The position numbers and the translations under genes are program-made. A stretch of DNA of 64,000 nucleotides from Trypanosoma brucei (Eukaryota), in NCBI GenBank assembly GCA_000002445.1, contig CP000066.1:320001-384000 (forward strand), given 5' to 3'. Below are positions 7,424-39,700 of the stretch, piece by piece. Numbering within the stretch: position 1 is the first letter of the stretch; every line of letters starts with the position of its first letter. Below the pieces are notes generated by a model. The model made no database searches. It was not told where the DNA came from and worked only from the letters and a program-made list of their open reading frames with translations.

Positions 7424-10400
7424 GTGGTAGGAGCGATGAAGTACTTTGCATGTCGTTTGGATGACCACAATGGCTTTGGTTTACTTATCGGTCACACACT
7501 TAGCTACTTCACTGCGCGCCGGGCCACGACGAAAGGCTTTAGCACTGCGACGCCGAAAAGCGCCGGCAGCGGTACCGATGGTGAAGACGCCTTCAACTTT
7601 CATGTGCAGTATACAGTGACGCTGCCGCATGTCTTCGGTTTTGCCCCGAAGTGTTTTAGCATGGCCAACTATTCTCTTTATGGAGTGGACATGGCAATCA
7701 TCGGCGGTAGCAATGGCGTGCTAGGTGTAGTGGTAATGCACGATGGCAGCATTGTGTATGCACCGGATCGCAGTCCCGAGGTAATGAATGCGAACAATCA
7801 AAGATCAGCGACTACAACATCCGTTTGGGCTCTATCGTGTGCGGCCAGGAGCTTACCATCTGTGCGAATGCTTGATACAGCCTCCACACTCAAGCAGGTG
7901 GCTGGTGCCACATCATCACCACCTTTTCCCCAACCAATGCCTCTTGCAGACAGAGGTGTTGGTACCGTTACTTGGATTCAAAACGACGCGTTGGTGTTCG
8001 TTGGATTTACGTCGGGTCAAGTTGAGTGGTACCGTGTCACCACCCGCATCCGCCAACCAGAAAGCAAAGAGAAGAGTTCGGAATTGATTAATATCGGTAC
8101 AGTTGGAAGGCCAACACGTTCGGGGTGTGTGACGGGAGCTTTTCCGGCGAATGGAGATATGTTTGCAGGGATGACTAATCCTAGTGGCGCGAATCATCGG
8201 ACCTCAGACAGCTTCCCACACCATCAAAGTACATGGGTGAACAGACAGAGTAGGAGAGAGGGTGCACCGCAGTTAGGTTCAAAAGAGGAGCATAAGGATG
8301 GTTGGTTTGTTGACATCTGCAGCCACTACTCAAGTAATTACTTTGCGGAAACTGGGGGTTTTGTGACAAGCGAATATTTCCCCGCCACAGGCCTTGTGCT
8401 TGCTGCAGCAGAGCGGGCGCTCTACGTGTTTACCAGAAAGCAGCCTGAGACAACGCTTTGCTGTGTGCCACGCACTGGGTGCACTTACATTTCCTGTCAT
8501 CCTTCTCTTCCTCTTGTTGCGTGCCTTGGTTGCGGAAACAAAACACCAAATATCAACGGAGATCCTGGGGAAGGTTCATGTGCTCTACAAGTGTTAGAGT
8601 GGACGGATGAGGGAGAGATGTGTCCAGTAACAGAAATTTGTGTTTTGACGCCATCTAGCGACTCAAGTGCACGCTGTTGTTCCCACCTGAATTGTTCGTG
8701 GAATCAGGGCGCCGAGCTGCAACTTGCGGTGTGCAACATGAAGGAGTGTGCCATTCAGTTGTTAAATCTCTCGCGTGCGGAGGAGTGGGTACACTGTGAG
8801 ACAGTACCAACTGCACGCCGTCGCTGGTATGAAATAATCTTCAACCGCGAACTGCACCACCCCTTGCGTTCACTCGTAAACGCAGAGTTCATATTACCGC
8901 GCGTGCTTGAGCAAGACCGAAAGTTGGCGAAACCACCAGCTTTCGCCAGTGACCCTGCCGCTGGTTGCCATGAACGAAAGGGTTCGCATCCGAGGGATTC
9001 TTTGGAAACCAAACGGGGTTCAACAGCAACCCTTAGCAAGGAGGCACCCCCCGCGTTGCTTGCACCGAATCCAGTGCAGGATGGTGAGGGGTGTCTTGTT
9101 AAGAATACAGTCGCTGGAGATGAACGAAGCACCCAGTCTCGAACCAGTGAGATCGCCCCTTGCCGTGCAGTGCCGTCAGTAAGCACTGTCCCTCACGTAA
9201 TTGTTGTGAACACTGTTGGTGAAATTGCGGTAACTCCCCTTCACACCGAGACAAAAGTCGCTTTCTTCGGATTGAACAGTATTGTTGCGGGTATCGGGGC
9301 GACTGTTTGCGCAATCAAGACACCAGCCAAGGAAACTAGCATTAGCGGCTGTTGTGCGGGAGCGCCGACTGCGACGATTACTTTAAGTGTGCCGTTTCCT
9401 TCAAGGAGTGTTCCGGTAACCGCACGTGAAGAGCAGGCCCGTGCCAGCATGGCGGACACGATTGACATCGAAGAGCACATGAGGAAGCGCCTTGCGGCTG
9501 GATTTGGAGTTCCTGCGGCAGCTAATGTGGAGGCGTTGACCAAGTTGAACGGTACTTCCGCCTACGATGTGGACGAACGTGTTCTGTTTTCGTATATCGC
9601 GATTATGGAGAAAGTGGGACTGGTGCGGTGTGATGGTCCGGTACCTAGTATCGTGGAGTTGCTCACTCTTCGTGGCGCACCGAACACTACGCAACTCACC
9701 GACATGGGTTTATTGCCGCATAATACAGCTGTTGTGTGTCGGTCATCCACTTCACAGAATGACTCCAGACGTTTGCTACTTCTTCACTTACTCAACTGGA
9801 TTCCCTCACGAAGTGAATCTCCACAGCGGAACCAGCAAACTCCTGCCACACGAGCGGACGTGGAGCGCGCTGTTGTGGTGGATGTGCTGCATCGGCAGCG
9901 TCTGCGTGCTGCTACATTTCTGCGCCAGCAACTTCACATAGACTCGAACTACAGCATCGTGGCTGGACTAATTGAAAACTATGACAAAGTGGCTAGTGCC
10001 ATGAATGATTGTGCGGGTGAGGTTCGAGAACCCTTTCTTCAGCGTTTGAGTCCTTGGCTACGAGTTGTCTTCACCTTCGAAGCTGACAAGATGGCTGTTT
10101 ACAAGAATGAGGCGCTGCCGTTCTGGGATCGAGTTGCCATTGCACTCATTCTGGAGCACGACACAAAACTTCTTGTTGAATTGCTTCGTAACACTTTTGC
10201 GCCTTTGTGTAATATGGTTCAGGAACTATTGTTGTTTGGAGGTATCTCTGCAAAAACATGTCAACTTATGCAAACAATCGTTGACTGCACCGGAGACTTC
10301 CAATTAGCGGCGTGTCTCTTCGCTCGCATTGGAGTCCACGCGACTGCTACTAGGGGAACGGTCCGAGAAGGTGAATCTGCTTTCAACAGGAATGGTGTGC

Positions 10401-10879
10401 ACGATGATTCCAGCTGGTTCAAGGAGAGCAGTACTGGTCGCCGGGACGAAGTCAACACTGTGGCCAACTATTGGGCACTTTGGTCGGGAGCATATCGTTC
10501 GTTTCTTGACAATGAACGGGAATTTGTTAAGCGAGTTGTGTTTGACCAACAGTGTCAAAACTGTAGCAAGTTATTATATTCTGGCGAGCATGGGACACGC
10601 ACAAAAATAGAAGTGTTGGAGCGAAGTAACAGCACTGGACATGCAGCTGGGGGCCCCGTGACAACATTACAGTTGCCGGTTGCCAATCAGCGTCGTTGTT
10701 ATGTATGTTCTTCCTCTGTACGGCTGGGACCGCTGATGGCAAGGAGTAGTTACGCCCACTGTGCAGTCTGTGGACATGGTGGCCACATCCATCACCTTCA
10801 GGCGTGGTTCCTCGCTCACCAGAAGTGTGCAGCTGCTGGGTGTGGCTGCCACTGTGCGGTGGACGGTCATGTTTCATAG
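7424..10879 (+). CDS. Second WD-repeat/RING protein of 1151 aa with the same C-terminal GATOR2/SEA-type zinc finger. Paralogue of the upstream gene.
   Basis: C-terminus reads CYVCSSSV…HCAVCGHGGHIHHLQAWFLAHQKCAAAGCGCHCAV. This is the near-canonical CGHGGH…WF…CxxGCGCHC motif of WDR24/WDR59/MIOS. Its position immediately downstream of a gene with the same ending indicates a tandem paralogue pair. Confidence 0.55.
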   Translation: MVGAMKYFACRLDDHNGFGLLIGHTLSYFTARRATTKGFSTATPKSAGSGTDGEDAFNFHVQYTVTLPHVFGFAPKCFSMANYSLYGVDMAIIGGSNGVLGVVVMHDGSIVYAPDRSPEVMNANNQRSATTTSVWALSCAARSLPSVRMLDTASTLKQVAGATSSPPFPQPMPLADRGVGTVTWIQNDALVFVGFTSGQVEWYRVTTRIRQPESKEKSSELINIGTVGRPTRSGCVTGAFPANGDMFAGMTNPSGANHRTSDSFPHHQSTWVNRQSRREGAPQLGSKEEHKDGWFVDICSHYSSNYFAETGGFVTSEYFPATGLVLAAAERALYVFTRKQPETTLCCVPRTGCTYISCHPSLPLVACLGCGNKTPNINGDPGEGSCALQVLEWTDEGEMCPVTEICVLTPSSDSSARCCSHLNCSWNQGAELQLAVCNMKECAIQLLNLSRAEEWVHCETVPTARRRWYEIIFNRELHHPLRSLVNAEFILPRVLEQDRKLAKPPAFASDPAAGCHERKGSHPRDSLETKRGSTATLSKEAPPALLAPNPVQDGEGCLVKNTVAGDERSTQSRTSEIAPCRAVPSVSTVPHVIVVNTVGEIAVTPLHTETKVAFFGLNSIVAGIGATVCAIKTPAKETSISGCCAGAPTATITLSVPFPSRSVPVTAREEQARASMADTIDIEEHMRKRLAAGFGVPAAANVEALTKLNGTSAYDVDERVLFSYIAIMEKVGLVRCDGPVPSIVELLTLRGAPNTTQLTDMGLLPHNTAVVCRSSTSQNDSRRLLLLHLLNWIPSRSESPQRNQQTPATRADVERAVVVDVLHRQRLRAATFLRQQLHIDSNYSIVAGLIENYDKVASAMNDCAGEVREPFLQRLSPWLRVVFTFEADKMAVYKNEALPFWDRVAIALILEHDTKLLVELLRNTFAPLCNMVQELLLFGGISAKTCQLMQTIVDCTGDFQLAACLFARIGVHATATRGTVREGESAFNRNGVHDDSSWFKESSTGRRDEVNTVANYWALWSGAYRSFLDNEREFVKRVVFDQQCQNCSKLLYSGEHGTRTKIEVLERSNSTGHAAGGPVTTLQLPVANQRRCYVCSSSVRLGPLMARSSYAHCAVCGHGGHIHHLQAWFLAHQKCAAAGCGCHCAVDGHVS

Positions 10880-11260
10880 GGTGGGCAAGGGATAATTCTT
10901 CCCTTCCCTCGTTACTTTAAGCCCTGTTTTATTTCAATCTCCTAGGATTCCTGTTGTACTCTTGCATTTGAGGGGCTATATACAACGTATATACATAAAT
11001 GTCATATCTGTGTCGACTGTTGCCCTGCTCTACTTTTCCCCACTTGTTCGCTTCTGCGGGATTGGCAAGGAACACAAGAGACGCACAAAATTGCTTTCTC
11101 ACGCTGTGGTGCTTCCCCTTTCTGATTCTTCTGGTAACTGCTTGGAACATCATCGCTCCGGCTCGTTTCTGTAATATTTTCTCGATTTTATTTATTTCAC
11201 CCTTCTTCATCGACTCCACTCGGGTCGAGTGAAAGTGGTAGTACAAGTGACACACCCGCG

Positions 11261-14200
11261 TTGGCCCGCCGCGAGGCGCCACGCATGCGAGGAACTGTTT
11301 TGATCTTTGGCAGAAAATTTAGTTGGAATGCTGTGGTCGACGAGTACGGTCACCGACTTCCTCAATGTGCAGGATTGAGTTCCACGCGTAAGAGGCTCTT
11401 GCTAAAAGATTGGAGGTATTTCACATCAACTGGGAGTGAAGAATCACTGACAACATTCTTTAGAAGTGGCCATAAATGTACGAATTCTTTAGAAGATGGA
11501 GATGATGCGCACGCTCACGTAAAAGGTAATGCTGACGTCGTGTACAACGACGGTCAGCAGGGTCGAAAGATCCATCGGGCCCTCCGAGGTGTTGCAGAGT
11601 TTATTGCAGCAACCGGAACCTTTGACGATGTGTGTGCTCCGGGTGAGCGTGGCTACTCAGATGTTTCATTAGCGGTTGAGGGTTTGAAGCGTGCCCGGCT
11701 TGCTGTAGAGTACACGGGAACTGTTCTTTCGCTTTCAAACGATCGGCGGGATGGAATGCTGGCACAGGCGCTTTCTCGAAATCGCCGCAGTGACGAGGAA
11801 GTGGTCAACCAGCAACACTTACGATCTCATTGTGGCGAGGTGCTCAGCCCCTTGGAGGTTGTGGCAATAGCACAGTGGTGTGCGTGGCATGTGCGAACCT
11901 CGTTGAAGGGTGCCAAACATCACCAAGGAACCCCGACGAAGTCGCAAGGGGATGCGGAAACTGCTCGTTGTATAGTCTCTGTTTTGACGCGCTTCCTTTC
12001 CATTCTTGTTGAGGAGGGGCTCCGCCGTTGGGCCGTTGATAGCGTTGCGTGTGAACTCGAACTTAGCGACTTGGTTTGCATCGTGACAGAGGAGGCCCTT
12101 CTTGTACTCCGTGATAATAAAAAAGCGTGCACGTCGGTGAAGTTTGCAACACCTTTGCCTACATGTTCTGTTGGGTGCAGTGCCACAAGTGAACAAACCG
12201 CACTCATGGCCGAGCATTTGAAGCCTGGGATGCGGACTTGGGAAGACCTCTGCTTTGGCGTGAAGGCGCAAGAGGCATTGCTGTGCAGTCAGCGAGAGCG
12301 CTGGCAGCGCGCCCTGCGCCTGTTGCTAGATGTGCAGCGGTGGAATGTCCTCGCAACTACAAAGAACTGTACCACTTCAACGGAAGAAGTGCTGACAAAT
12401 GAATGCGAGGGGAAGTGTCAGTTGCTAGCAAGTAAAGCATTGAACATTCTCTCGATGATCCCACATGGGGTGGTCCAAACACTGCAGTACATCTTAGCCC
12501 AGCATGGGCAGTGGCGTTTGTGCATGATGCTGTGGAAAAGGGGTATTCGTCTTCCTTCCGGCGATGCTCCGACTTGTAATGAAACCGAGGAAGAGCGGCC
12601 ACCGCACTCATTACTTCTTCACCCTGCTGGCCTCAACACCGTTATCACCGCACTGGCGCTTGTCAATGGAAGGCCTTCCAAACATTCATTCACCGCGGCA
12701 ACGTCATCCTTGTTGTGCGCAACAGCAACCGCGGGCGGAACGGAGGGTGTAGATGCGAAGTTGCTGCGGCTGCTCTTGCACCTTGGTGTCATTCCACATC
12801 GCCACTTTACAGTTACCGAATTTGCCACCCTACTCAAGGATGCATTTGGTCTTCATCTCCAAAGCAGTCATGTTGACAGCATTCTATCACCTGCAGCTGT
12901 GTGGCGGTGTTCTGAAGGTCTGCCGTCTCACATGCGTGAAGTATTGTGTTTAATGTGCTTCCGTGTTGTCGCGAGAAGTGGGCTGGCCCACACGTTAATG
13001 CTGGAAGACTTGTACGTTATCATATGCCTTTCCTACCGCACTGTGCTGTCACAAATGTGCCGTCCCATGGCAGAAAGTTCCACTCCGTCAACTCAAAGGG
13101 GGAGAGAGAATATAAGTAACTGCGCTGTGCCCAATATTCAAGGTCGTTGCGAACCGTCCCGAAACGGATTATTGACAGTCGGGTTAGCTGCGGCAACGCG
13201 CAGGACGGCCGTGTTCGCAGAAGAGGACATTCGTACAATAACCGAAGCATTTCTCTCATGTAGTAGTAGGTTATTGGTCCCCTCAGAAAGGGCAAAATCG
13301 TTTCAAAGGGAGGAAGAGGTGTATGCTGGTGTGAATTATACGGATCTGCATCTCTATCGTACGCTCGTAAATGTCAGGATTGGCAGGAATGGGAGCACTG
13401 CAATGCTCTTTACAGTTTCCTCCATGTTGACGAGACTTCTCACTGTGATGCCGCACGTTTTTACACTAGGCACCGTGTGGAGAGGCGCGCTTTGTGCACT
13501 GTCGACTAACTACCAACTGGATGCTTGTGACCATCATTTGGCAGCAGCAGCATCTGTATTCGCGGAAGTGATAGTGGGAACGGCTAGGACGTCCAATAAG
13601 GATGCCCTCGTTGACACCCTCGTGTATTTGGCTCCACTTCTTTCGCCATTCGCGATAGGCCAAATTGTGAAAGGTCCTGTTGGACGTCGGCTCAGTTGGA
13701 CTCATTGCCTTGCTCTGTTACCTTATGCGCCGTGCGCTTCTGGTGCGCAAAGATTGATGTTACGGCGCATCGTAAAAGATTGTGACGTAGAAGGGATGTC
13801 GTTTGTTTACTCCTTACTGCGTATGTCCACGCCTCCGTTGCAGTTACTGCCACAAGCGTCACCGGCTGTCTCAACGGACGTATGTACATTATTGTTACTG
13901 ACTGAGCGGAGTTGGATGCGGGCCCTGCAGGCGTATGGCCGATTTGATCTTCGGGTGCAACGTGCCTGCGCCCCGCACATTGTACGCCTCATCGTTACCG
14001 CTGGAGCGTGGTTGCCACACACTCACAACACCGGCGGGGACGCCAACTGTAGCCATTGCCTCAATGGGTTCGACTCGCTGCTCCATACTGCTCTTCAGGC
14101 AACTGAGGGGAGCCGTGTGGCGGAAGAGGTTCTGCAACTTAGTCTTAAACGTGGATTGTGGGCAGGTGGTCTTGCTTTTCATCAGCGTTTGCAACATGAA

Positions 14201-15562
14201 CATTCAGGTATACTTTTGGGGAATGGTCGAATTAAAACGTGCGCTGCAATGCTGTTTAAAGGACTACTCTCCCATACCGCTCTCGCGCACACAATAGCGG
14301 TTGCCCTCAAACATGCTCGTGCCGCGAGATGGGCGGAGGCTTGTATGGTTCTTCTTGAGGACGACGGTAGTCATGATGGTGCTGAGGAAAGTGGAAGTGT
14401 AACACATTTTGGTGTCACCTCTCTCCACCCAGCTCACTGGTCATCGTTGTTTCGTGACAAGGTGCCCCCACAACTGTCCCATTTAGCCCACACCGTGCGC
14501 TACAGTATGTTGTGTTGCCCTGGTTTATGGCAGCGGGCATTGAAATGGTTGCCACCTCAGGCGCTTCCATTTCCGGTCCATCACCAACTATTGCTTGCTC
14601 GCGTTTCCGGTTTGCCAATTGGTGTGGCAGCCGCGTGTGACGCGGTAACGCCGAAGGTGGAAACGACAACGCCACTTGTTGGCCCACCCCTATCACCCAT
14701 GTCGCTTGTGCAGGTAGCGTTGCAGGAGAAGTTGCGCTGCAGCAAGGCATCGGCGACGGTGGCATCTCAGGCGGAAGTTGAGCGCACACTCCGCGTTTTG
14801 CGTCAACGCGGACAGTGGGAACAAGCAGTCTTGGTTTACGAGCATTCGCTTGCTTGCCGTTGTTTTCCGCATAGTGCAAGTGCCACCGTTGTTGGTGCTT
14901 GCCTGCCTTCGTGGCAGGCGTCCCTTAGTTGCTTTGCGCACATGTCTCAGCGTATGCGTCCCGATGTGGCAACCGCTTCATTAGCTTTGCAAGCTTGCAG
15001 GCGTGGTAGAAAATGGAAGATTGCTCTACGTGTCCTTCAGCAATGCGTGCTTACATCTGCGTCCCGCTCGGCAGGTGAGGTTGTAAGAACTGCACCACAG
15101 TTGATAAATTACGCAATACAGGCGGTTTTGGGTGCCGGCGTTTGGGACGCCGCATTAAATGTGGTTCGCCAATATGGTCAGACAATGAGTCCCTTGCTAG
15201 CAAATACCATTCTTCTGACGTATGTGCGTGCGGAACGATACGATGAAGCTGTGAATTTTTTTTATGGCTGCGTTCGCCGTGGAGTGCGACTGCACGACCA
15301 GTCGCTTGATCTTGTGGTAGCAGCAAGCCAAGCAGTATCGGCAGAATACCATGATTTAGCGCGGTTTGTTGGGGTAATGGCGTCAACTTTGGAGGACTTC
15401 TGTCATGTTCATGGCGTGTTGCTGCAACACGTCCTACTTGTTTGTCGCAGCATTTCTGTTCCCCCCCACGCGTTGGTCCTCTCTTTTAGTTGTGATCAAA
15501 CCGGCGTATCCGCGAGTATGGTATCTGATGATGTCATTAATGCGACTGATTCTATTTGGTGA
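11261..15562 (+). CDS. Large hypothetical protein of 1433 aa with C-terminal PPR/TPR-like helical repeats. Possibly an organellar RNA-binding protein.
   Basis: C-terminal third has ~35-aa degenerate helical repeats (…ASLALQACRRGRKWKIALRVLQQC…, …LLANTILLTYVRAERYDEAVNFFYGCVRRGVRLHDQSLDLVV…) with a pentatricopeptide-like pattern. N-terminus is Arg-rich (MARREAPRMRGTVLIFGRKF). Confidence 0.4.
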   Translation: MARREAPRMRGTVLIFGRKFSWNAVVDEYGHRLPQCAGLSSTRKRLLLKDWRYFTSTGSEESLTTFFRSGHKCTNSLEDGDDAHAHVKGNADVVYNDGQQGRKIHRALRGVAEFIAATGTFDDVCAPGERGYSDVSLAVEGLKRARLAVEYTGTVLSLSNDRRDGMLAQALSRNRRSDEEVVNQQHLRSHCGEVLSPLEVVAIAQWCAWHVRTSLKGAKHHQGTPTKSQGDAETARCIVSVLTRFLSILVEEGLRRWAVDSVACELELSDLVCIVTEEALLVLRDNKKACTSVKFATPLPTCSVGCSATSEQTALMAEHLKPGMRTWEDLCFGVKAQEALLCSQRERWQRALRLLLDVQRWNVLATTKNCTTSTEEVLTNECEGKCQLLASKALNILSMIPHGVVQTLQYILAQHGQWRLCMMLWKRGIRLPSGDAPTCNETEEERPPHSLLLHPAGLNTVITALALVNGRPSKHSFTAATSSLLCATATAGGTEGVDAKLLRLLLHLGVIPHRHFTVTEFATLLKDAFGLHLQSSHVDSILSPAAVWRCSEGLPSHMREVLCLMCFRVVARSGLAHTLMLEDLYVIICLSYRTVLSQMCRPMAESSTPSTQRGRENISNCAVPNIQGRCEPSRNGLLTVGLAAATRRTAVFAEEDIRTITEAFLSCSSRLLVPSERAKSFQREEEVYAGVNYTDLHLYRTLVNVRIGRNGSTAMLFTVSSMLTRLLTVMPHVFTLGTVWRGALCALSTNYQLDACDHHLAAAASVFAEVIVGTARTSNKDALVDTLVYLAPLLSPFAIGQIVKGPVGRRLSWTHCLALLPYAPCASGAQRLMLRRIVKDCDVEGMSFVYSLLRMSTPPLQLLPQASPAVSTDVCTLLLLTERSWMRALQAYGRFDLRVQRACAPHIVRLIVTAGAWLPHTHNTGGDANCSHCLNGFDSLLHTALQATEGSRVAEEVLQLSLKRGLWAGGLAFHQRLQHEHSGILLGNGRIKTCAAMLFKGLLSHTALAHTIAVALKHARAARWAEACMVLLEDDGSHDGAEESGSVTHFGVTSLHPAHWSSLFRDKVPPQLSHLAHTVRYSMLCCPGLWQRALKWLPPQALPFPVHHQLLLARVSGLPIGVAAACDAVTPKVETTTPLVGPPLSPMSLVQVALQEKLRCSKASATVASQAEVERTLRVLRQRGQWEQAVLVYEHSLACRCFPHSASATVVGACLPSWQASLSCFAHMSQRMRPDVATASLALQACRRGRKWKIALRVLQQCVLTSASRSAGEVVRTAPQLINYAIQAVLGAGVWDAALNVVRQYGQTMSPLLANTILLTYVRAERYDEAVNFFYGCVRRGVRLHDQSLDLVVAASQAVSAEYHDLARFVGVMASTLEDFCHVHGVLLQHVLLVCRSISVPPHALVLSFSCDQTGVSASMVSDDVINATDSIW

Positions 15563-20581: not shown

Positions 20582-21466
20582 GCAATTTGCACAAATACGT
20601 ATATCAACGTCTGTCTGTGGGTGCATGTTTGTGTGTTCGAATGGAGAGAGATGAAGGACCGCTGCCAAAAGCAGTGAAACGCCCGAGTATTATTCCAAAC
20701 AGTGAAGTCCCAGATGCGGATGCAGGGAGGTAAAACAGAAGAGGGGCAACATACGCTGCTACGGAAGCAATGTTTGTGGTGACAACCGTCAGCAATGCGG
20801 GTTGAAGACGAGAGCACGCGGGTGTGAGTAACATCAACGTTGCGGTATCTTTCCTTCCACTTTCTTCTTTTAGATCCCTTAAGGATAGTGCTTGTGCGAC
20901 TTCCCATTACTGCTTGAATTAGGGGAAAGCAGTACTGAAAGGGCTGGGTGATAACGGGAAGGCACCTTAGCAAGAAGAATGAGGGAAGGAGCGTAAATAA
21001 AAACCAAACGTAAACAGGTAAATAATTACGGTAGTTCGGTTAAAAGTCCCGCAGGCTCAAGAGCGGCCTGTTGTGTGGGGATTAAAAAAGGAAAAAGGGA
21101 GCGGTAATACAAAGTTTCTGCTCTGCTGGTGTTTCGCTGTTGTTCTGACCTGCAGAGGTGCAATATGCTGCGCGGCCCCCATTTCCCCACATGGCTTTAC
21201 CTTTCTCTTATCTGCTTGAATTCTGCCTCTCGTTATTTCATACACCCCGTCTCATTGTTTTCTCCGTATCCTTTGGCATTTTGTTGTCTCATATTATCCA
21301 CGGTAACATCGATGTGGAAAAGGTGGGCTGGGAGGGGCTGGGGTTGCTTCGGTGTGAGCGTACAGTAGACGTTGCGTTGGCCACTTCTTCTCAACTGCGT
21401 TCGCGTGCGCAGCTATAAAGCTACCCCGTCCCTCTTTTTTATTTTATTCGTCACAGTTACGGACCG

Positions 21467-23335
21467 TTGATGTGCTCTGTTGCACCGTTAGCTTCACACG
21501 GTACGGGATGTCCTGTCGCCGCTTGTATCGTGCGCTGCAAAAGACACCTTTCAGCTGTCGTGTGCCGCTTACGGAAGCTCAAAAGGTTGCGAAGTGGCCG
21601 CAACGTAACAACTTTCAACGCCAACTTTTACGAAGCGGTGGCTGAAGAGCGGCGCTACGGAGCATTTACGGATGGTGAACACTTTGACGACTGTACACTG
21701 CACCTGCGGCGGTGGATGTTGCGTCGTGTGACGTGTGCACCGACTTTCGCTACCTCTGTTACGGGTAGTGTAGAAACGAATGAAGTGCTAACAATGTGGA
21801 CAAAGTTGAGTGATGGTGGAGTTGTGTGGAATATTTTGCAAAAAGAGCAGCAGTGTTACGCAGTGCACTTCATAGGAGAGCTCTCATCTGATTTTGTTAA
21901 GGAGTTATTTAATTGTACCGTTGACGAATATCGCTCTGGTAGCCACAATGGTGTTGTGTTGTGTATTGTGCAGCAGTTGCGTGTGTACTCTGAAGCATGT
22001 TGTAGACCGGAGGATTTCCCACCACCTCTTTACGAGCTACGCGCTGCTGCCTTACGGACACAAGTTCTCCATCAGTGTGGCAGTGCCGGCGCGTTTCCCA
22101 CTTCTACAAAGTTGGGGAAACGGTCTGAGAATGGGTCGGACTGCTTTACGTTCTCGGAGTTGTTCGCTGGCATGGGTATGTTTCGTGTTGGGCTCGAGCG
22201 AATTGGTGGGAAGTGTGTCTTTGCGGTTGAGTGCGCACCTCACGCACGTAGTGTGTATCACGCTAACCACCATTTGCCAAGGCGTAATAGTTGTGGAAAT
22301 GAGGCATTACCAGCTACTCGTCGCCCTGTTCCACTCGTCGGCGATATCACCACTGTCCCTTCGCACTACTTCCCACACCACGATGTGTTAACAGCTGGTT
22401 TTCCGTGCCAAAGTTTCGCCAAAGCAGGATCCGCCACTGGTTTGCGCGATACAAAAGGGCAACTTTTTTATGAGGTCGTGCGAGTGATACAAAGCGCCAA
22501 GCCAAAGGGGTTCCTACTGGAAAACGTAGAAAATGTACTACATGTTGGGGGTGAAGATGGAGGCGAGGCCAACGCAAGCGAGGAATCGCAACATCACTTG
22601 AAGTTTATACTTGACGCGTTGCGGTCACCTTCGCCGGACAGTAATGAAGCGCTTACTTACGTCGTCGCGTATCGGGTTATTGATGGTGCTCTTGTGACCC
22701 CGCAGAGACGAAGACGTGCCTATTTTGTAGGAATCAGAGCTGATTTACCACGTGCAAACGCGAGGGATGTTGGTGCTGTGCTTGACGATGCTGTGCGACA
22801 GCTACGAGCATACAGAGATATGCACCCGGAAGCACCACGTTGCGTGAGGGATATCCTTGATTCCACGGGTGACACGAGCGAGATGGGGGAGTTCAATCAG
22901 TCTTTAGTATCGCTGCGTCTCACGGAGTCACAGTGGGCAGCAGTTCAGCGCAGTGTAACTTTCCGCCGATCCCCTTCGTGGCGCGTGTCTGATCTCAACG
23001 GGTTGGCACGGACTCTCATGGGAAGCTACCGCGCCAGCTATCAACTCTACTCGGAGTTTGTTCCTCTGCCTGACGGTGGGCCGCCCTTTCGCTTTTACTC
23101 AATTCGTGAATGTGCCCGACTTCAGGGCATTCCCGACTGGTTCTCCTTTAATGTTGTCTGTTATCCACTGTCTCTGGAGAAGTGCAACGGTAGGAGCGGT
23201 CCCTCTCATGGAAGTGATAAGGGCTGTGAAAGGTGTGTACCTGTGGGGGCGGTATACAAACTAATTGGAAATGCAGTGAATCCCATTGTTGTTGAGTGCT
23301 TGGGTCGTGCACTTTTAAGTCGTATCCTTAAGTAA
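21467..23335 (+). CDS. C5-cytosine methyltransferase of the DNMT6/TbDMT type, 622 aa, with a ~220-aa N-terminal extension of unknown function.
   Basis: Complete ordered motif set. Motif I FSELFAGMGMFRVGL (FxGxG). Motif IV GFPCQSFAKAG (catalytic PCQ). Motif VI LLENVENVL (ENV). Motif VIII QRRRRAYFVG (QxRxR). Motif IX RECARLQGIPDWF. Motif X YKLIGNAVNPIVVECLGRAL (GNAV). Confidence 0.8.
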   Translation: MMCSVAPLASHGTGCPVAACIVRCKRHLSAVVCRLRKLKRLRSGRNVTTFNANFYEAVAEERRYGAFTDGEHFDDCTLHLRRWMLRRVTCAPTFATSVTGSVETNEVLTMWTKLSDGGVVWNILQKEQQCYAVHFIGELSSDFVKELFNCTVDEYRSGSHNGVVLCIVQQLRVYSEACCRPEDFPPPLYELRAAALRTQVLHQCGSAGAFPTSTKLGKRSENGSDCFTFSELFAGMGMFRVGLERIGGKCVFAVECAPHARSVYHANHHLPRRNSCGNEALPATRRPVPLVGDITTVPSHYFPHHDVLTAGFPCQSFAKAGSATGLRDTKGQLFYEVVRVIQSAKPKGFLLENVENVLHVGGEDGGEANASEESQHHLKFILDALRSPSPDSNEALTYVVAYRVIDGALVTPQRRRRAYFVGIRADLPRANARDVGAVLDDAVRQLRAYRDMHPEAPRCVRDILDSTGDTSEMGEFNQSLVSLRLTESQWAAVQRSVTFRRSPSWRVSDLNGLARTLMGSYRASYQLYSEFVPLPDGGPPFRFYSIRECARLQGIPDWFSFNVVCYPLSLEKCNGRSGPSHGSDKGCERCVPVGAVYKLIGNAVNPIVVECLGRALLSRILK

Positions 23336-33758: not shown

Positions 33759-36700
33759 GTGTTAGGAGGCGCGTTTGTAAGCGCACACAACGCTCGTTTC
33801 CAAAAGAGGGACGGAAATAACGTCATTTCTTTTCCATTGAAAGAAACCTCCGCTGAAGTGCACCACCGAATGGAGGCGCCCGGGGGTCAATTAACCATCG
33901 CGCGGCTTGAAATTCGGCGCTTTTGTCTCCAACCAGAGGAATTAGTGCAGCGTTGCGCCCAGCCAAGCGCCGGTAGTGTTGGCGGTTCTGTACAGCTTTA
34001 TGTTTCATTCACCACTCCGCGTGGTGTAGAGATAAGTCTGCAAGGGGTGGCCGCCAACCAACAAACCGATGAGAAGGGCGTAAGGCGAGTTCAGTGCGCA
34101 GCAAATACAAACCTCATGGATGTTTCTTTTGTTGTGACACAACTCAAAACAGACGGGATCCAGAAAGATGGGTGTGAATCCGTAAAGAGTGTTATGTGTC
34201 AGGTTTGGTATAGTCGAGCAGAGCAGCAGGAACAAGTTATGAAAGGAGGAGGGGGAGAGGCTAAACTCCCCGTTAACAATCTCGTGGATGGAGACTGGTC
34301 GTCGTTTGAAGATTCGCCTCCTTCCTCAATAACAGCGTTGCCACATGTTGAGGACGAAGAAAAGTTGGAGGAGAAAGCACCGGCGGCAGTTGAGTCGCAT
34401 TGGGAGGTTCTTGCAGATGTCAGTCTTGAAATTATGAAATATGGTGTACAAACGGTCAATTTTGCGATGGGGGATGTGGCAAAGGAGTACACTAGCGCGT
34501 CACTGCAAGCTTCGATATTCATAGAGCCGAAGTTGCTTGCGGTAGAAATAGAGGAAGCAGCTGCTCCACTCGCAACTAAACCTCCAGTTGAGACAACGCA
34601 ACCGGGGTTACCGCCGGACAACAATCCCTTATCACTGGATCACGGGACGGCTCCCTCGACAGGATTTGCTGAGGAACGTTGTGGTGAAGCTACCTCTGCT
34701 CCTTCTGGTAGATCCACTGCTGTCGGTACCGGTGAGGCACCAGTTTGTGGAGCGGGCGTGGTAGAAGTGCCAAAGGGAAATATGGAGGCAGCCACTCAAG
34801 AACAGGCAGATACAATGGTTGTTGTGCTTGCGGAGCAGCCGAAACATATGGGAGCACGATGGCTACTACTACTAGATATGTCCCGATGGGATGATTGTGA
34901 ACCTAACGGTAGTGATGAACTTAAACAAGAAAAAGTAAATGTTGCCACCCAAGGTGCTGGTGATGCCACTAGCCGGAGTGTAGTTGAGGGTGGCATTCTG
35001 TTCCGGTTGGTGTTGTGTGGGGCGGATGCGAACGTGTTAGCGTATGGTTCTCCGTTCAGTGGGTCATTGTGTCGCACCAGTGGTTGGAGCGATGCCTTGC
35101 TGGCTGTCGGTGACGACATAGTTGCTTGTTCCGTTGTCTCTGTAAAGCTTCAGATGTTCAACCACAATGCGATGCCTAACTGCCAGACCGATGCGGAGGC
35201 GACCGCTGAACCCTTACAGCTGAATAACACGTCGCGTGAAGCGGCGAAGGCATGGGTGACAGTAGCTTCCTCTCAACTTGTGCCGATTGCTTCACTATTA
35301 GCTTCACTGAAGGAGTCCTCGATGCTCCCGATACCGTTGACTGCGGTGGACCTCCCAAGTGCCGTAGCACCCCCGACCGAGTTCGTGTCTGTGAACAGAG
35401 GGCAAACGATAAGTGCGCAAGCGAGTTTAGTTAGGGTTCCAGCTGTTGTCGGTGAAACAAAAAGTGTTAGACATTGGATGAAGACAATCAGGATCGCAAC
35501 GGACTGCTTCTTCAGGAAATCGTGTCAAACACTCGACACAGTCGCACCTCCAAGTGAGATTAGTCTGCCAAAGGAATGTGAGTGGAAACAAAGTGGAACG
35601 GGGTGGATGTGCTCCGTTGAACTGAATGTGTCTGCGGTGGTGCTACAAAAGGTGGTTCCTTACGTTGATGCGGGTGCAGCGTGGCCTGTAACAGCGCTTT
35701 CCGTTTCTGGTGGTTGCGAAATACTCCTTGAGGAAACTAAAATGAGTGATATTTTCTTCAGTGCCTACACCGACAACGAGTGGTCCGAGACCCGACGCAG
35801 TCCAGTTTCCCATTTTGACACCGTCGTTCAAGCCACGGTTAACGAGACGCATCCCGTGGTTTTAATTACGTTGCACAGTTCAGTATCACAGGAAGTGCTG
35901 TTTGGTCACGCAGTTTTTGCTCCCCTTGGGTTAAGGCAGGATGTAGGTCACGTGTGGTTACCATTACAATATAAGAACCACATTGGATACCATAAGCATG
36001 GTGAGGACGACAGTTCCCCCACTGTAGGGTGGGTTCACTGTAGTTACATTTGTGTGTTCTCTAGTGCGGGCGCCAGTTCTTCCTCTGTGACCGCGGGAAA
36101 TGAGGAGGTTCTTCAGCAACCTGTCCTGTTTCCCTCTCCATTGTCAGTGCCCAAGTACATCGCGTCCCCTTGTCTTACACCCGCTCTGCGATGGAATTCG
36201 ATAGAGGTGTGTATTGTGAAGGCAAGCGACCTGCGTATTGACGTGAATTCATCATCGCGTTGCAGTGACGGTAAGGGCGGAAACGATGGCGGCGCTGGTG
36301 GAAATGTTGAGGGTTTCCTCCACGCTAGTGTGCAGCTTCTTCCCAAGTCTGACCTCAACCCGTTTGTTACTCCCGCTGCTTCTTACGAGTACCCTCACTG
36401 GAATTCCACGTGCAGAGTAGGCATTGCGGCAGCTGCAACACATCTGATCGTGCAGGTCCTTGTTGGTGACGGACGTGGCGGCGAAGGCAAATCTGTTGGA
36501 ATTGTTGATATTACCCGCGTTGCCACTTCAGGTTTCTGGACTACAGCTTCGTGCGATGGGGTGTGGTTGCCTCTGGTTTCCAACCACTCTTCAGGTGGCG
36601 AACGCCGTTACTGCGGTTCTCTGTTTATCCGCTGGTCATTTGGCTGCGTTGGAGATCTGCCTAAAGAGGTCGTTATCGGTATGGGCGCTGCGCTGCGCCC

Positions 36701-39700
36701 TACGTGGAGCAACGTCGGCCTCCCCAGTGCCTCCACTGCCCACAACAATCGGTTTGACAGGGGCCACTGGTTACGGTTGGAACGTGTGGAGGTACAATTA
36801 CCATGGAGGTTGTGGCACATGGGGCGTCATTGTGAGGCACGGTGGAGGGAGGTTCTTGGCCTCAAACCCACGGATATGTTGCCGGACATAACTCTTCGGC
36901 TACAATCAGGAGATTTTACACACGAATCAAACTTGGTGCTGCTGTCCGCGGGTGGTTTCGGTTTTTGTCTGCGTGAAGCTGTTTTCCTTCCACTAACCGA
37001 TAACTTTAACGTGGTTGTGTGCTTTCGTTACCACGGAAATACACTTGCCTCTGAGACGCCTGGTGGAAAGACAACCGCCGGGAGTGAAATTTGTAACACA
37101 GTCACTGTGGCTGAAGGTGAATTGTCTCTTTCTGCGCAAGACCGCGTAGATCTTCTCACTTACCGTCAGCAGCAATCGTGTCGCCGCATATTCATGAGGG
37201 TACATCCCCGGTCGATTTCGCCACATTTTAATATTCCTTTTGGTTTGCTTACCGCTGAGGTTACTTCTTCAGTTATTAAACGAAACGACGAGATCCGCTG
37301 GACTTGGCCTCAACCACATATCGCTGCGTCAGTGGAATTGCAACTTGGAAAAGTTTTTTCCTTGCGGCGCCACGATTCAAAGGACTGGCTTCCCGCTACT
37401 GCGAATGCGGCGTCTCCTCGATGGATCGTAAATGTTAGAGAAACGGGGTCCGCGTGCCCGGAACAAGAGGGAAGTAATAAGGAACGGGTAACGGGTATTT
37501 TGTTCGGTGCTTCACCCAGGGCGGCTGTTCTTCGTGGTGGATGCAGCACCCGCAGTAGTGCAGTGAGTAACTTCGGCGGGCTAAGTTCCCAACACACAGG
37601 AGACGCTGCAGAGAAATTGTACTTGCATTGGCCACCCGCACCGCCGGGCGCTGATCACAGACGACGCCCGCCACCTCCGACTATCGAGCTTTTGCTTTCT
37701 CGCATAGTGGATAATGACGCTGTGGACGTTGGTGGTGACTCGAAAGCCGCACCGAAAATTGAGAAGGAAAGTACCGTGAACGTGGGGGTCGTGACGCTCA
37801 ATTTGGCCAGGTGCTTTTCAGATTCCTCTGGGTCTAGCTTATATGAATTGCACCACCCGCAAACGCCACCGACGGTGGCGGAAGGAAGACCTCCAACGAT
37901 CGGTTACGTGGAGCTGCACTACCTTCATAACTTTGCACAAGATAACAACACAAACCGTGGTGGACAGGAAACGGACAAGGTTGAGCAGGAGCAGCATGAC
38001 AGATGCAGCAGACATTCACTTCTGTTGCTGACTGTGGTTGGAGCACGATACAGGGAACGTGGGCAAATTTCAGCAGCCCCGGTGAGGTCGCAGCGTGATG
38101 GAAAGGAGGGTGTGTCGGTGAAAACGATACTAACATCCTTCGTTGTCGGCGTAGGGCACATGTCATGGCATACCTCAAAGGAAGTGGGTATGACCCCTCA
38201 CTTTGGCAGTACGATGCTGTTTGAACGTCCATATAGTCATACCGGAGAGGACGCTGATGGTGAACGCAATGTTGTAACTGTTCGACTGCAGATGCTGGCA
38301 GAATCGTCAAGTAGGGCGAAGTTAGGCTCCCCCGATCGTGAAGTGGGTGGGAAACAAAAGACATGTTTGCGAGGGGAGCAGAAAGAGGCTGAGATGCTTC
38401 CCACATCATTTGCTCTCCTTCATCTCAACTGGGACACTGTCCCTGCCGCTGTAATGGAGAGAATGAGAGGCTGTTGGCTTCCTCTGTTCACAGCTGCAGC
38501 GCAAATTGATGGCTCATACCATCTTTCCGGAGAAGTGCTCGTCCAGTGGAGTTGGTTTGATCCCTCTTACGGATTTTGGCGGTATGCGCTTCCTCTCTCC
38601 GTCAATCAAATATCACCAATGGATTGTACAATGGCAAGTGTCCCACAAATGTTGGCTGCATCGGAGGACCACGTGGAGACACCTGCATCCTCATTCCCAT
38701 CCTACTTGTCAATTTATATTGATGAATTTACCTTTTCCCATAACGTTGTTGTTGAGACACCGCGGAAAGATACACGAGTATCGCTTATCGTAAGCGTTTG
38801 CGTGAATGGGGAAAGGGGACCGCTCAGCCCGCCGTCTCTTACTGCTTCATCTTGGACGCTTCGGTGCACGGAGGGAGAGGCAGATTCCCTAAAAGTTTGT
38901 TATGGAGACTGTACCGGCGCAACTCCCTTCGAGACCGAAGGGAAACGCAGCAGGTGGAGAGAAAGATGTATACTTCCCTTTTGTTTTCCTGGCGATGCAC
39001 AGCAACAGATATCTTTTCAACTGCGTCACGGCTGGAGTCCGTTCAGTACGGTTGGCGAGGGATGGTTAAGTTGGAAGGGCACGCCATCACAGGGGACTTA
39101 TGCTGTTCCTATCTTTGTAAGCGATGCAAGCTGCCGCAACAGCAGTGACGATTACCAACGGTGCGGCGTTTTGATGGTGTCCGTTGAGCAGGGGCCGCTT
39201 CATTTGAACTCAATGCAGGTAACTACCACTGTCCCACCTCCCTCATCCAATGAGGAAGTGCAATTCGATGATGGGAAAGGCCCTCAGCGTAAGGAAAAGC
39301 ACAGTGGAAAGCATGAGGACCATCACGCGACGGTGGATGGCAATCCTTCATTCATTGTATTGGTGGATCTACGTGTGGACTCAGTTGAGGTTGACGGGTG
39401 GAACGTCCTCCCTGATGATGGTAACTGCCTGGAGTTGGTGGTTTTGGGAGATGCTCTGTATAACAACGGTAAATCAAAACAAACAGTACGGTTGGAAACG
39501 GCATGTTCTCCTTTCGACGGTGGCGCAACCGGTTGGCAAGGTCTGATTTGCGTGCAGAATTCGTCCGAGCTCGAAGTGCACCTCTACCGAAGGACTCAAA
39601 CGGTGCCGGGTAACTCTGTGGAAAAGAGTGTGAGACATCGCATGATAAGTGGTCGGTTTGTGTTAAATCTTTTGCCGTCCGAGGATGGGGGTCTCTGCAG

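What the first reader, a model, noticed from the sequence alone, without database searches (positions are those of the whole stretch)
21467..23335. Complete DNMT6-type C5-cytosine methyltransferase with a long N-terminal extension
All catalytic motifs of a cytosine-5 methyltransferase are present in the canonical order I, IV (PCQ with catalytic Cys), VI (ENV), VIII (QRRRR), IX, X (GNAV). The gene should therefore encode an active enzyme. Kinetoplastid DNMT6/TbDMT-type enzymes are unusual single-domain MTases whose in vivo substrate (DNA versus tRNA) remains debated. The ~220 aa preceding motif I (MMCSVAPLASHGTGCPVAACIVRCKRHL…), if translated, has no recognisable domain and could be a targeting or regulatory module.
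Basis: partly seen in the sequence, partly recalled or inferred. Interest (0 to 1): 0.55.

Follow-up and report, generated by a model that had tools for sequence, protein, structure and literature searches.

The report
Known trypanosome DNMT6 methyltransferase gene (TbDMT)
This is the already annotated and studied Trypanosoma brucei cytosine-5 methyltransferase gene Tb927.3.1360 (TbDMT/DNMT6); it is intact, and its long N-terminal part is translated and forms a conserved second domain that the literature has not described.

Summary
The ORF is real. It starts at ATG 21470 rather than the TTG at 21467, ends at 23335, and encodes 621 aa. The protein is 100% identical to T. brucei TREU927 XP_843730.1 (Tb927.3.1360, "TbDMT"). 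The window matches chromosome 3, 320001-384000.

All C5-methyltransferase motifs are present in canonical order. Pfam PF00145 matches at E=5.6e-45, and the AF2 model superposes on M.HhaI, Dcm and DNMT2.

Published spliced-leader mapping (Kolev 2010) puts the main acceptor 166 nt upstream of the ATG. The N-terminal region aligns from Met1 in 14 kinetoplastid orthologues.

The N-terminal ~205 aa has no Pfam, PDB-sequence or significant fold match. It is nevertheless a confidently folded ferredoxin-like domain with a strongly basic first segment. A profile search of 1.84 billion proteins found it in only 35. At least 32 of these carry a C5-MTase domain or are kinetoplastid DNMT6 orthologues. The rest are short products that are fragments or unresolved. 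Hits include a choanoflagellate, chytrids and an ichthyosporean. So this DNMT6 type has two domains, not one.

Published work places the protein in the cytoplasm, finds no genomic 5mC, and finds no tRNA C38 methylation. The substrate is unknown and is probably RNA.

The gene is already known. The domain observation is a modest addition.

The parts
21195..21322 (+). Polypyrimidine-rich tract and spliced-leader acceptor region of the gene
   Evidence: The sequence is pyrimidine-rich. Kolev 2010 Table S12 gives the predominant acceptor at chr3:341304, which is window 21304, and the averaged site at 341311. The first AG after the tract is at 21321-22.
21304..21469 (+). 5' UTR, 166 nt for the predominant published site. 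It contains one short out-of-frame uORF (ATG 21312, 18 codons).
   Evidence: An in-frame TAA at 21416-18 prevents any longer N-terminus.
21470..23335 (+). Coding sequence of Tb927.3.1360 (TbDMT / DNMT6), 621 aa plus a TAA stop
   Evidence: The protein is identical to XP_843730.1 and SCU69919.1.
21503..21628 (+). N-terminal domain, first core segment (aa 12-53): a beta strand, a helix, and the basic motif RLRxxxRLKxGxNVTxF. Net charge is +10.
   Evidence: P15, R35, L40, V46, T47 and F49 are invariant in 14 kinetoplastids. pLDDT is 77-95. Mean identity is 41% and net charge +10. The segment is shared with a chytrid and a choanoflagellate.
21629..21844 (+). Variable, kinetoplastid-specific insertion within the N-terminal domain (aa 54-125), predicted as beta hairpins
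   Evidence: Mean identity is 14% and length varies. It is absent from the non-kinetoplastid homologues. pLDDT is 50-80.
21845..22084 (+). N-terminal domain, second core segment (aa 126-205): the 'AVHxxG' strand, a helix, the 'LRxxSxxC' strand and a long helix
   Evidence: A131, H133, G136, R171 and C177 are invariant. pLDDT is 83-94.
22085..22144 (+). Low-confidence, non-conserved linker (aa 206-225)
   Evidence: pLDDT is below 50 at aa 209-219. Mean identity is 12%.
22145..22744 (+). AdoMet-binding and catalytic half of the C5-MTase domain (aa 226-425). Motif I is at 22163-22177, IV (PCQ, Cys313) at 22403-22411, VI (ENV) at 22520-22528, and VIII (QRRRR) at 22703-22717.
   Evidence: phmmer matches Dcm (3me5/3lx6) and M.HhaI at E~1e-23 to 1e-24. 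Foldseek matches M.HhaI at E=5e-20 with a target-normalised TM-score of 0.75.
22745..23089 (+). Target-recognition region (aa 426-540) carrying the DNMT6 signature LTxxQWxxVxxSxxFRxxPxWR...ARTLMGSYRxSYQLYSEFVP
   Evidence: It is highly conserved among kinetoplastids, at 46% mean identity, and in the chytrid and choanoflagellate proteins.
23090..23332 (+). C-terminal part of the MTase domain: motif IX (RECARLQG, 23105-23128), a variable low-confidence insertion (aa 557-592, 23138-23245), and motif X (GNAV, 23267-23278)

Best explanation
The locus is the single-copy T. brucei gene Tb927.3.1360 (TbDMT, the kinetoplastid DNMT6). It lies inside a + strand polycistronic unit between a WD40-protein gene and the RPS25 and ATP-synthase-beta genes.

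Shown here or in published data:
- The mRNA is trans-spliced about 150-170 nt upstream of ATG 21470, so the whole 621-aa ORF is available for translation.
- The protein has two folded parts. The first is an N-terminal ferredoxin-like domain of about 190 aa (aa 12-205, core about 120 aa plus a kinetoplastid-specific insertion). It occurs almost only in front of this type of methyltransferase, in several eukaryotic supergroups. The second is a complete Dcm/M.HhaI-like cytosine-5 methyltransferase domain with every catalytic and AdoMet-binding residue intact.
- Tagged protein is cytoplasmic, gives no chromatin signal, and bisulfite sequencing finds no genomic 5mC.

Inferred:
- The enzyme works by the standard C5 mechanism. 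Cys313 attacks C6 of a flipped-out cytosine, Glu351 protonates N3, Arg414 and Arg416 hold the base, and the methyl group comes from AdoMet bound by motifs I-III and X.
- Its substrate is a cytoplasmic nucleic acid, most likely an RNA, and not tRNA position C38.
- The basic N-terminal domain helps to bind or select that substrate.
For: Identity: the protein is 100% identical to XP_843730.1 and SCU69919.1. Start coordinates for Tb927.3.1360.1370 and .1380 equal window coordinates plus 320000.

Catalytic competence:
- Pfam and NCBIfam matches are well above their cut-offs.
- All motif residues are invariant in 44 homologues.
- The AF2 model has pLDDT 83 and pTM 0.88.
- It superposes on M.HhaI, Dcm, M.HaeIII and DNMT2 at E down to 5e-20.

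N-terminus is translated:
- The SL acceptor is 166 nt upstream, and the gene is absent from Kolev's Table S1 of internal acceptor sites.
- A TAA stop lies 51 nt upstream of the ATG.
- The only in-frame Mets before motif I are 1, 83 and 109.
- Met1 and blocks at aa 15-49, 131-136 and 171-177 are conserved in 14 kinetoplastids.

N-terminus is a family-specific domain:
- pLDDT reaches 95.
- The profile search found 35 hits in 1.84e9 proteins.
- 21 of the 25 sequences scanned (21 newly found hits plus 4 from the first search) carry PF00145; the 4 without it are among the 149-372 aa products in that set, on contigs from about 1 kb up to 562 kb where recorded, or a transcript ORF.
- Named members come from Stephanoeca, Irineochytrium, Cladochytrium, Creolimax and Telonema.
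- The chytrid and choanoflagellate proteins share both the N-terminal block and the TRD signature.

Substrate and location:
- The protein is cytoplasmic with N- and C-terminal tags and gives no ChIP signal.
- WGBS found no 5mC in Leishmania or T. brucei, and the Leishmania knock-out is viable.
- T. brucei tRNA m5C is at C12, C34, C48-50 and C60 but not at C38.

Basic surface: aa 12-53 have net charge +10 with no acidic residue.
Against: - No experiment has shown methyltransferase activity of this protein on any substrate. The RNA-substrate idea is inferred from localisation and from negative DNA data.
- Militello et al. 2008, as cited, reported low-level 5mC in T. brucei nuclear DNA.
- The known tRNA m5C sites can largely be assigned to NSUN/Trm4-type enzymes.
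- The published predominant acceptor coordinate (window 21304) is not preceded by AG in this sequence.
- I could not test whether the stramenopile and haptophyte DNMT6 proteins that define the family carry the N-terminal domain.
Confidence: 0.72

Rival explanations
1. It is a genuine nuclear DNA cytosine-5 methyltransferase that deposits sparse 5mC in the trypanosome genome, as originally proposed for TbDMT.
For: The domain is closest in sequence to bacterial DNA methyltransferases Dcm and M.HhaI, and all DNA-MTase motifs are intact. Militello 2008 reported 5mC in T. brucei nuclear DNA, as cited.
Against: Whole-genome bisulfite sequencing found no credible 5mC in T. brucei or L. donovani, including overexpressor and knock-out lines. 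The tagged protein is cytoplasmic in bloodstream and procyclic forms and gives no ChIP-seq signal. Reviews now treat DNMT6 as not being a DNA methyltransferase.
Confidence: 0.1
2. The annotated start is wrong. The N-terminal ~220 aa are 5' UTR or are translated only from an internal Met, so the extension is an annotation artefact.
For: Trypanosome start codons are often misannotated. Kolev 2010 devotes a whole table to such cases. One T. b. equiperdum gene model (RHW73599.1, 608 aa) has a different N-terminus.
Against: The mapped SL acceptors lie about 150-166 nt upstream of ATG 21470, and the gene is not in the misannotated list. Met1 and three sequence blocks are conserved across 14 kinetoplastids and beyond. 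The region folds with pLDDT up to 95 and the full-length pTM is 0.88. There is no in-frame Met between residue 109 and motif I.
Confidence: 0.03
3. The protein is a catalytically silent relic or has a non-enzymatic role, for example a nucleic-acid-binding or scaffold function.
For: No substrate has been found. The Leishmania knock-out is viable and no DNA methylation is seen. T. cruzi apparently lacks a DNMT6.
Against: Every catalytic and cofactor-binding residue is invariant across kinetoplastids and distant eukaryotic homologues. This pattern is expected under selection for catalysis and not for a scaffold.
Confidence: 0.1
4. The basic N-terminus is an organellar (mitochondrial or kinetoplast) targeting sequence, and the enzyme acts on kinetoplast DNA or mitochondrial RNA.
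For: Residues 12-53 are strongly basic with no acidic residues.
Against: The C-terminally tagged protein, which leaves the N-terminus free, is cytoplasmic and in the flagellar cytoplasm in TrypTag. The basic stretch is part of a confidently folded strand-helix-strand unit that is conserved in non-kinetoplastid eukaryotes.
Confidence: 0.03

Closest known systems
TbDMT / Tb927.3.1360 (T. brucei DNMT6; Militello 2008) and LdDNMT6 of Leishmania donovani (Cuypers 2020)
   Same: The sequence is identical to the T. brucei reference protein. It is 38% identical to the L. donovani protein, which is labelled 'DMMT6' in the database. The architecture is the same from Met1 to motif X.
   Different: Nothing differs at the gene level. 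What is added here is that the N-terminal region is a conserved folded domain, which the DNMT6 literature I could read does not describe.
Bacterial Dcm (3me5/3lx6) and M.HhaI cytosine-5 DNA methyltransferases
   Same: These are the best sequence matches among solved structures, at E=2e-24 and 2.5e-23 over motifs I-VIII. The fold is the same (Foldseek E about 1e-19, target-normalised TM-score 0.65-0.76). Motif order and catalytic residues are the same.
   Different: There is no restriction or Vsr partner, because the gene sits in a eukaryotic polycistron. The TRD did not align with Dcm or HhaI by phmmer. The eukaryotic N-terminal domain is unrelated to the ~95-aa N-terminal region of the closest bacterial homologues (hhalign probability 0.04%). 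No DNA methylation is detectable in vivo.
DNMT2 / TRDMT1 (tRNA-Asp C38 methyltransferase)
   Same: It has a DNA-MTase-like fold and is a candidate for a DNA-to-RNA substrate switch. It is cytoplasmic and has no chromatin domains. It is a structural neighbour (S. pombe Dnmt2, E about 4e-15).
   Different: No DNMT2 chain is among the 16 PDB sequences matched by phmmer at E<=0.001. DNMT2 and DNMT6 are not monophyletic. C38 is not methylated in T. brucei tRNA. DNMT2 has no N-terminal domain.
Stramenopile, haptophyte and green-algal DNMT6 (Ponger and Li 2005; Huff and Zilberman 2014; Hoguin 2023)
   Same: Published trees place them in the same family. No Pfam companion domains are recognised.
   Different: Funabiki et al. 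call the trypanosomatid proteins 'Euglenozoa variants of DNMT6'. Whether the diatom proteins carry the N-terminal domain was not tested. None of the named hits to the N-terminal profile is a diatom or a haptophyte.

Membership tests
Cytosine-5 methyltransferase superfamily (Pfam PF00145 / TIGR00675) | Profile match above the curated threshold | tested here: met
   PF00145 scores 154.6 bits against a cut-off of 22. TIGR00675 scores 151.9 bits against 100.65.
Cytosine-5 methyltransferase superfamily (Pfam PF00145 / TIGR00675) | Motifs I, IV (PCQ with catalytic Cys), VI (ENV), VIII (QxRxR), IX and X (GNxV) in canonical, non-permuted order | tested here: met
   The positions are aa 232, 312, 351, 412, 546 and 600. 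All are invariant in 44 homologues.
Cytosine-5 methyltransferase superfamily (Pfam PF00145 / TIGR00675) | Two-lobed M.HhaI-like fold | tested here: met
   The AF2 model (pLDDT 83) matches M.HhaI at Foldseek E=5.4e-20 with a target-normalised TM-score of 0.75.
Cytosine-5 methyltransferase superfamily (Pfam PF00145 / TIGR00675) | AdoMet-dependent methyl transfer to C5 of cytosine | not testable with these tools
   This needs biochemistry. I found no published activity assay for this protein in the papers I could read.
DNMT6 (eukaryotic C5-MTase subfamily) | Placement in the DNMT6 clade of DNMT-domain phylogenies | tested here: met
   I built no tree. However, the protein is sequence-identical to T. 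brucei XP_843730.1 / Tb927.3.1360, which published trees place in DNMT6 (Cuypers 2020; Funabiki 2023). The L. donovani homologue among the hits (38% identity) is labelled DNMT6.
DNMT6 (eukaryotic C5-MTase subfamily) | No chromatin-reader or other recognised companion domains | tested here: met
   PF00145 is the only Pfam family that is significant or above its curated cut-off. The N-terminal 221 aa have no Pfam hit at E<0.04 in any of 14 orthologues. Even so, an unrecognised conserved domain is present.
DNMT6 (eukaryotic C5-MTase subfamily) | Nearest outgroup is Dcm-like bacterial MTases | tested here: met
   The top PDB sequence hits are Dcm (3me5, 3lx6) and then M.HhaI. This agrees with Cuypers 2020.
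DNMT2 / TRDMT1 | Sequence-level membership of the DNMT2 family | tested here: not met
   Solved DNMT2 structures exist in the PDB and appear as fold matches, but no DNMT2 chain is among the 16 sequences matched by phmmer at E<=0.001. DNMT2 and DNMT6 are not monophyletic.
DNMT2 / TRDMT1 | Methylation of tRNA C38 | not testable with these tools
   In the literature, bisulfite sequencing of T. brucei tRNA found m5C at C48-50 and other positions but not at C38.
Bacterial restriction-modification / Dcm-Vsr methyltransferase | Prokaryotic gene context with a cognate endonuclease or Vsr | tested here: not met
   The neighbours are eukaryotic housekeeping genes on one strand: CBP66, a WD40 protein, RPS25 and ATP synthase beta. 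The mRNA is trans-spliced.

The most novel reading that the evidence does not exclude
The N-terminal ~120-aa ferredoxin-like core is an ancient, eukaryote-wide module specific to DNMT6. It is marked by the basic RLKxGxNVTxF motif, then AVH, then LRxxSxxC. In this reading it recognises the enzyme's still-unknown cytoplasmic RNA substrate. It would be the structural basis of a second DNA-to-RNA substrate switch in the C5-MTase superfamily, independent of DNMT2. It would also contradict the current statement that DNMT6 'consistently lacks companion domains'.
Probability: 0.3. Interest if true: 0.55.

Novelty: already known. Interest (0 to 1): 0.3.

Why it matters
The gene is already annotated and has been studied in several ways, including localisation, ChIP-seq and genome bisulfite sequencing, with knock-out and overexpression done on the Leishmania orthologue. 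Rediscovering it adds nothing.

The useful residue is that DNMT6 remains the only DNMT in most trypanosomatids and has no known substrate. This analysis shows three things. The full ORF is expressed. The catalytic machinery is under strong constraint. The enzyme carries a previously undescribed, conserved, basic N-terminal domain shared with opisthokont and other protist homologues.

That gives concrete constructs for finding the substrate: full-length versus a deletion of aa 1-205, a Cys313Ala mutant, and point mutants of R35, T47, H133, R171 and C177. It also corrects the view that DNMT6 is a bare catalytic domain.

Tried and rejected
- **Known domain in the N-terminus, by sequence.** Pfam scans of 14 orthologous N-terminal segments gave only noise (best E=0.041). 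A profile search against all PDB sequences gave one chance hit at E=1.4.
- **Foldseek against AFDB50.** The library was not available.
- **Bacterial origin of the N-terminal domain.** The closest bacterial Dcm-like homologues have their own ~95-aa N-terminal region with an 'LTHYLHN...VPFPxP' signature. MAFFT superficially aligned this with the 'AVH' block. Profile-profile comparison shows no relationship (probability 0.04%).
- **Other SL-mapping sources.** The supplements of Nilsson 2010 do not list the gene, and those of Siegel 2010 are not held. The Militello 2008 and 2014 primary papers are not held, so they are cited only through other papers.
- **RNA genes in the window.** There are no tRNA genes and no Rfam families, so nothing suggests a linked RNA substrate.
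- **Organism of the large marine metagenome clade that carries the N-terminal domain.** Contigs reach 2.2 Mb and encode eukaryotic genes such as an F-box protein and RPS23. No taxon name was available. Micromonas is only a guess.
- **dN/dS on the N-terminus.** I did not attempt it. The nearest non-brucei orthologue, T. vivax, is only 50% identical, so synonymous sites would be saturated.
Full report
**1. Observation**

The window has one long + strand ORF at 21467..23335. The tool uses the bacterial code, so it starts the ORF at TTG 21467. The organism is a trypanosome, so the real start is the adjacent ATG at 21470. This gives 621 aa followed by TAA at 23333-35.

An in-frame TAA at 21416-18 closes the frame upstream.
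- I, FAGMG, aa 232-236
- IV, PCQ, aa 312-314
- VI, ENV, aa 351-353
- VIII, QRRRR, aa 412-416
- IX, RECARLQG, aa 546-553
- X, GNAV, aa 600-603

Pfam PF00145 matches aa 226-562 at E=5.6e-45. NCBIfam TIGR00675 'dcm' matches at E=3.2e-44.

**2. Identity**

The protein is 100% identical to T. equiperdum SCU69919.1 and to T. brucei brucei TREU927 XP_843730.1. The published T. brucei chromosome 3 coordinates for Tb927.3.1360.1370 and .1380 (acceptor site plus 5'UTR length) equal 341470, 343637 and 344483. Each is exactly the window start codon plus 320000. The window is therefore T. brucei TREU927 chromosome 3, about 320001-384000, and the gene is Tb927.3.1360. This is the 'TbDMT' of Militello 2008 and the 'DMT' of Staneva 2021.

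All ORFs of at least 200 aa that look like genes lie on the + strand. The immediate neighbours are CBP66, a WD40 protein, RPS25 and ATP synthase beta. This is one polycistronic unit of housekeeping genes. No tRNA gene or Rfam family is present in the window.

**3. Is the N-terminal extension translated?**

Kolev et al. 2010 (PMC2936537, Table S12) list a predominant acceptor for Tb927.3.1360 at 341304 with a 166-nt 5'UTR. The averaged site is 341311, with a 158.6-nt UTR and a dispersion of 8.6. The gene does not occur in their Table S1, which lists ORFs whose acceptor site maps inside the ORF. That file is held uncut and was included in the search. So the mRNA begins upstream of ATG 21470.

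Sequence evidence agrees with this:
- The only in-frame methionines before motif I are residues 1, 83 and 109. Any enzyme that retains motif I must therefore carry at least 120 extra residues.
- Alignment of 14 kinetoplastid orthologues starts at Met1 in all of them. They include T. vivax, Leishmania, Leptomonas, Phytomonas, Herpetomonas, Strigomonas, Novymonas and Porcisia.
- That alignment shows invariant P15, R35, L40, V46, T47 and F49, then A131, H133 and G136, then R171 and C177.

A non-coding leader would not keep frame and motifs across this range of species. One caveat remains. The window has GG, not AG, immediately before position 21304. The first AG after the long polypyrimidine tract is at 21321-22, which would give a 147-nt UTR. 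I leave this unexplained. Possible causes are a strain SNP, a trimming artefact or a non-canonical site. Every candidate site is still at least 147 nt upstream of the ATG. With the 166-nt UTR there is one 18-codon out-of-frame uORF, starting at ATG 21312.

**4. What the N-terminal region is**

It has no Pfam match in any of 14 orthologues and no PDB sequence match. It is, however, a domain.
- AlphaFold2 on a 44-sequence alignment gave mean pLDDT 83 and pTM 0.88 for the full protein. pLDDT is 77-95 for aa 12-60 and 83-94 for aa 120-205.
- The isolated N-terminal model gave the same secondary structure.
- The topology is beta-alpha-beta ... beta-alpha-beta plus a long C-terminal helix, that is, ferredoxin-like.
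- A poorly conserved insertion at aa 54-125 is predicted as beta hairpins. It has 14% mean identity, against 41% for aa 12-53.

No homology can be claimed from these fold results.

**5. Distribution of the N-terminal domain**

A profile of the N-terminal region was searched against 1.84 billion representative proteins. It found only 35 proteins at E<=0.001. Fourteen of these are proteins from the first homologue search: 13 kinetoplastid-type DNMT6 and P0026, a marine-metagenome protein.

I scanned the remaining 21, together with four further hits from the first search, against Pfam. Of these 25, 21 carry PF00145. The four without it are among the 149-372 aa products in that set, which sit on contigs from about 1 kb up to 562 kb where recorded, or are a transcript ORF. 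Most look like fragments, but I did not resolve each one.

Named members come from several lineages:
- the choanoflagellate Stephanoeca diplocostata
- the chytrids Irineochytrium annulatum and Cladochytrium tenue
- the ichthyosporean Creolimax fragrantissima
- Telonema subtile
- an MMETSP transcriptome
- an abundant marine picoeukaryote clade, on contigs up to 2.2 Mb

BLASTP shows that the chytrid and choanoflagellate proteins share three things with the T. brucei protein: the N-terminal block, the catalytic motifs, and the distinctive target-recognition signature ARTLMxSYxxxYxLxSEFVP. In these organisms the kinetoplastid insertion is absent, leaving a compact core of about 100-120 aa.

The closest bacterial homologues have a different N-terminal region that is unrelated by profile-profile comparison. 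Within the limits of detection, the domain is eukaryotic and found essentially only fused to this methyltransferase. This qualifies published statements that DNMT6 'consistently lack any companion domains' (Sarre 2025) or are 'mostly homogeneous' without extra signatures (Hoguin 2023). Those surveys relied on known domain models. I could not test the diatom and haptophyte DNMT6 proteins. None of the named hits is from those groups.

**6. Mechanism**

*Shown.* All residues needed for the textbook C5 mechanism are present and invariant across 44 homologues. They are the AdoMet pocket (F232-x-G234-x-G236, plus N601 and V603 of motif X), the nucleophile Cys313 within P312-C313-Q314, Glu351 of ENV, and Q412, R414 and R416. 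E254 and D292 are also conserved: D292 is invariant and E254 at least 90% conserved across the 44 homologues, and both are invariant in the 14 kinetoplastids. I assign them to motifs II and III by position, but I did not test that assignment. The fold superposes on M.HhaI, Dcm, M.HaeIII and DNMT2. By sequence the nearest solved relatives are Dcm and M.HhaI, not DNMT2, DNMT1 or DNMT3.

*From the literature.*
- YFP-tagged DMT is predominantly cytoplasmic in bloodstream forms.
- In TrypTag, both N- and C-terminal tags are cytoplasmic in procyclic forms.
- ChIP-seq gives no signal.
- Whole-genome bisulfite sequencing found no credible 5mC in L. donovani (wild type, overexpressor and knock-out) or in T. 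brucei.
- The Leishmania knock-out is viable.
- T. brucei tRNAs carry m5C at C12, C34, C48-50 and C60 but not at the DNMT2 site C38.

*Inferred.* The enzyme is a functional methyltransferase acting on a cytoplasmic nucleic acid, most plausibly RNA. The N-terminal domain contributes to substrate binding or selection. Its first segment has net charge +10 with no acidic residue, and the high pTM suggests, but does not show, a defined position relative to the catalytic domain. I put about 0.5 on RNA as the substrate class and about 0.3 on the specific role of the N-terminal domain. No direct evidence exists for either.

**7. Rival explanations**

- A true nuclear DNA methyltransferase. This is disfavoured by localisation, ChIP and WGBS.
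- A misannotated start. This is essentially refuted.
- A catalytically silent relic. This is disfavoured by the invariant catalytic residues.
- An organellar targeting peptide. This is disfavoured because the C-terminally tagged protein is cytoplasmic, and because the basic stretch is part of a folded domain conserved outside kinetoplastids.

**8. Comparison with known families, and novelty**

The gene is the T. brucei reference member of DNMT6, so the finding is already known. It works like a Dcm/M.HhaI-type enzyme at the catalytic level. It resembles DNMT2 only in the likely loss of DNA as a substrate, and it is not a DNMT2 family member.

The incremental result is a DNMT6-associated N-terminal domain shared across Discoba, Opisthokonta and other protists. 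The DNMT6 papers I could read do not describe it. It gives a handle for finding the substrate. I score interest at 0.3.

Noticed in passing
window 21300-21325: The published predominant spliced-leader acceptor for Tb927.3.1360 (chr3:341304, window 21304) is preceded by GG in this sequence, not AG. The first AG after the polypyrimidine tract is at 21321-22. The same table's coordinate convention checks out for the next gene, where AG at 23597-98 precedes site 23599.
   Followed up: partly
window 21312-21368: An 18-codon upstream ORF (MWKRWAGRGWGCFGVSVQ) lies in another frame within the 166-nt 5'UTR. It would be excluded if the AG at 21321-22 is the acceptor.
   Followed up: no
window 21470-23332 (aa 115, 235, 273, 343, 347, 400, 522, 569, 610): The TREU927 / T. 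equiperdum OVI allele differs from T. b. gambiense DAL972 at 9 residues. Eight of them are in the methyltransferase half. They include M235 in motif I, where 11 of the 13 other kinetoplastid orthologues aligned and gambiense have Ile, and A522 in the TRD signature, where most others have Thr. Only one difference (D115G) is in the 225-aa N-terminal part.
   Followed up: partly
P0065 (RHW73599.1, T. b. equiperdum), relative to window 21470-21560: This 608-aa gene model starts 'MSCRRLYRALQRHLSAVV...' and then rejoins the normal sequence. It looks like a frameshifted or misassembled 5' end in that assembly and not a real alternative N-terminus.
   Followed up: no
Bacterial homologues P0031, P0035-P0037, P0042, P0044-P0046 (N-terminal ~95 aa): The closest bacterial Dcm-like methyltransferases carry their own conserved N-terminal region with an 'A-x-LTHYLHN' motif and a 'VPFPxPE' motif just before motif I. 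It is unrelated to the eukaryotic DNMT6 N-terminal domain (hhalign probability 0.04%). I did not identify what it is.
   Followed up: partly
window 23138-23245 (aa 557-592) and 22544-22597 (aa 359-376): There are two low-confidence, lineage-variable insertions inside the methyltransferase domain. One is Cys-rich and lies between motifs IX and X (…CYPLSLEKCNGRSGPSHGSDKGCERC…). The other is an acidic Gly/Glu-rich insertion after motif VI, found in full only in T. brucei and shorter in T. vivax.
   Followed up: no
window 52000-56000; ORF 54532-55629: This AT-rich stretch (GC 0.38-0.41) contains a 365-aa ORF with a VSG_B domain (E=6e-31). It is a chromosome-internal VSG-related gene. Leucine-rich-repeat protein genes follow at 59405-60307 and 61470-63920.
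   Followed up: no
window 3335-15562 and 33759-44648: Three consecutive large ORFs (1262, 1151 and 1433 aa) have no Pfam match at E<=1e-5. A further ORF of 3629 aa was not scanned.
   Followed up: no
whole window: Every gene-like ORF is on the + strand, and cumulative GC skew rises monotonically from 0.2 to 3.4. This is consistent with one polycistronic transcription unit. No tRNA genes or Rfam families were detected.
   Followed up: partly
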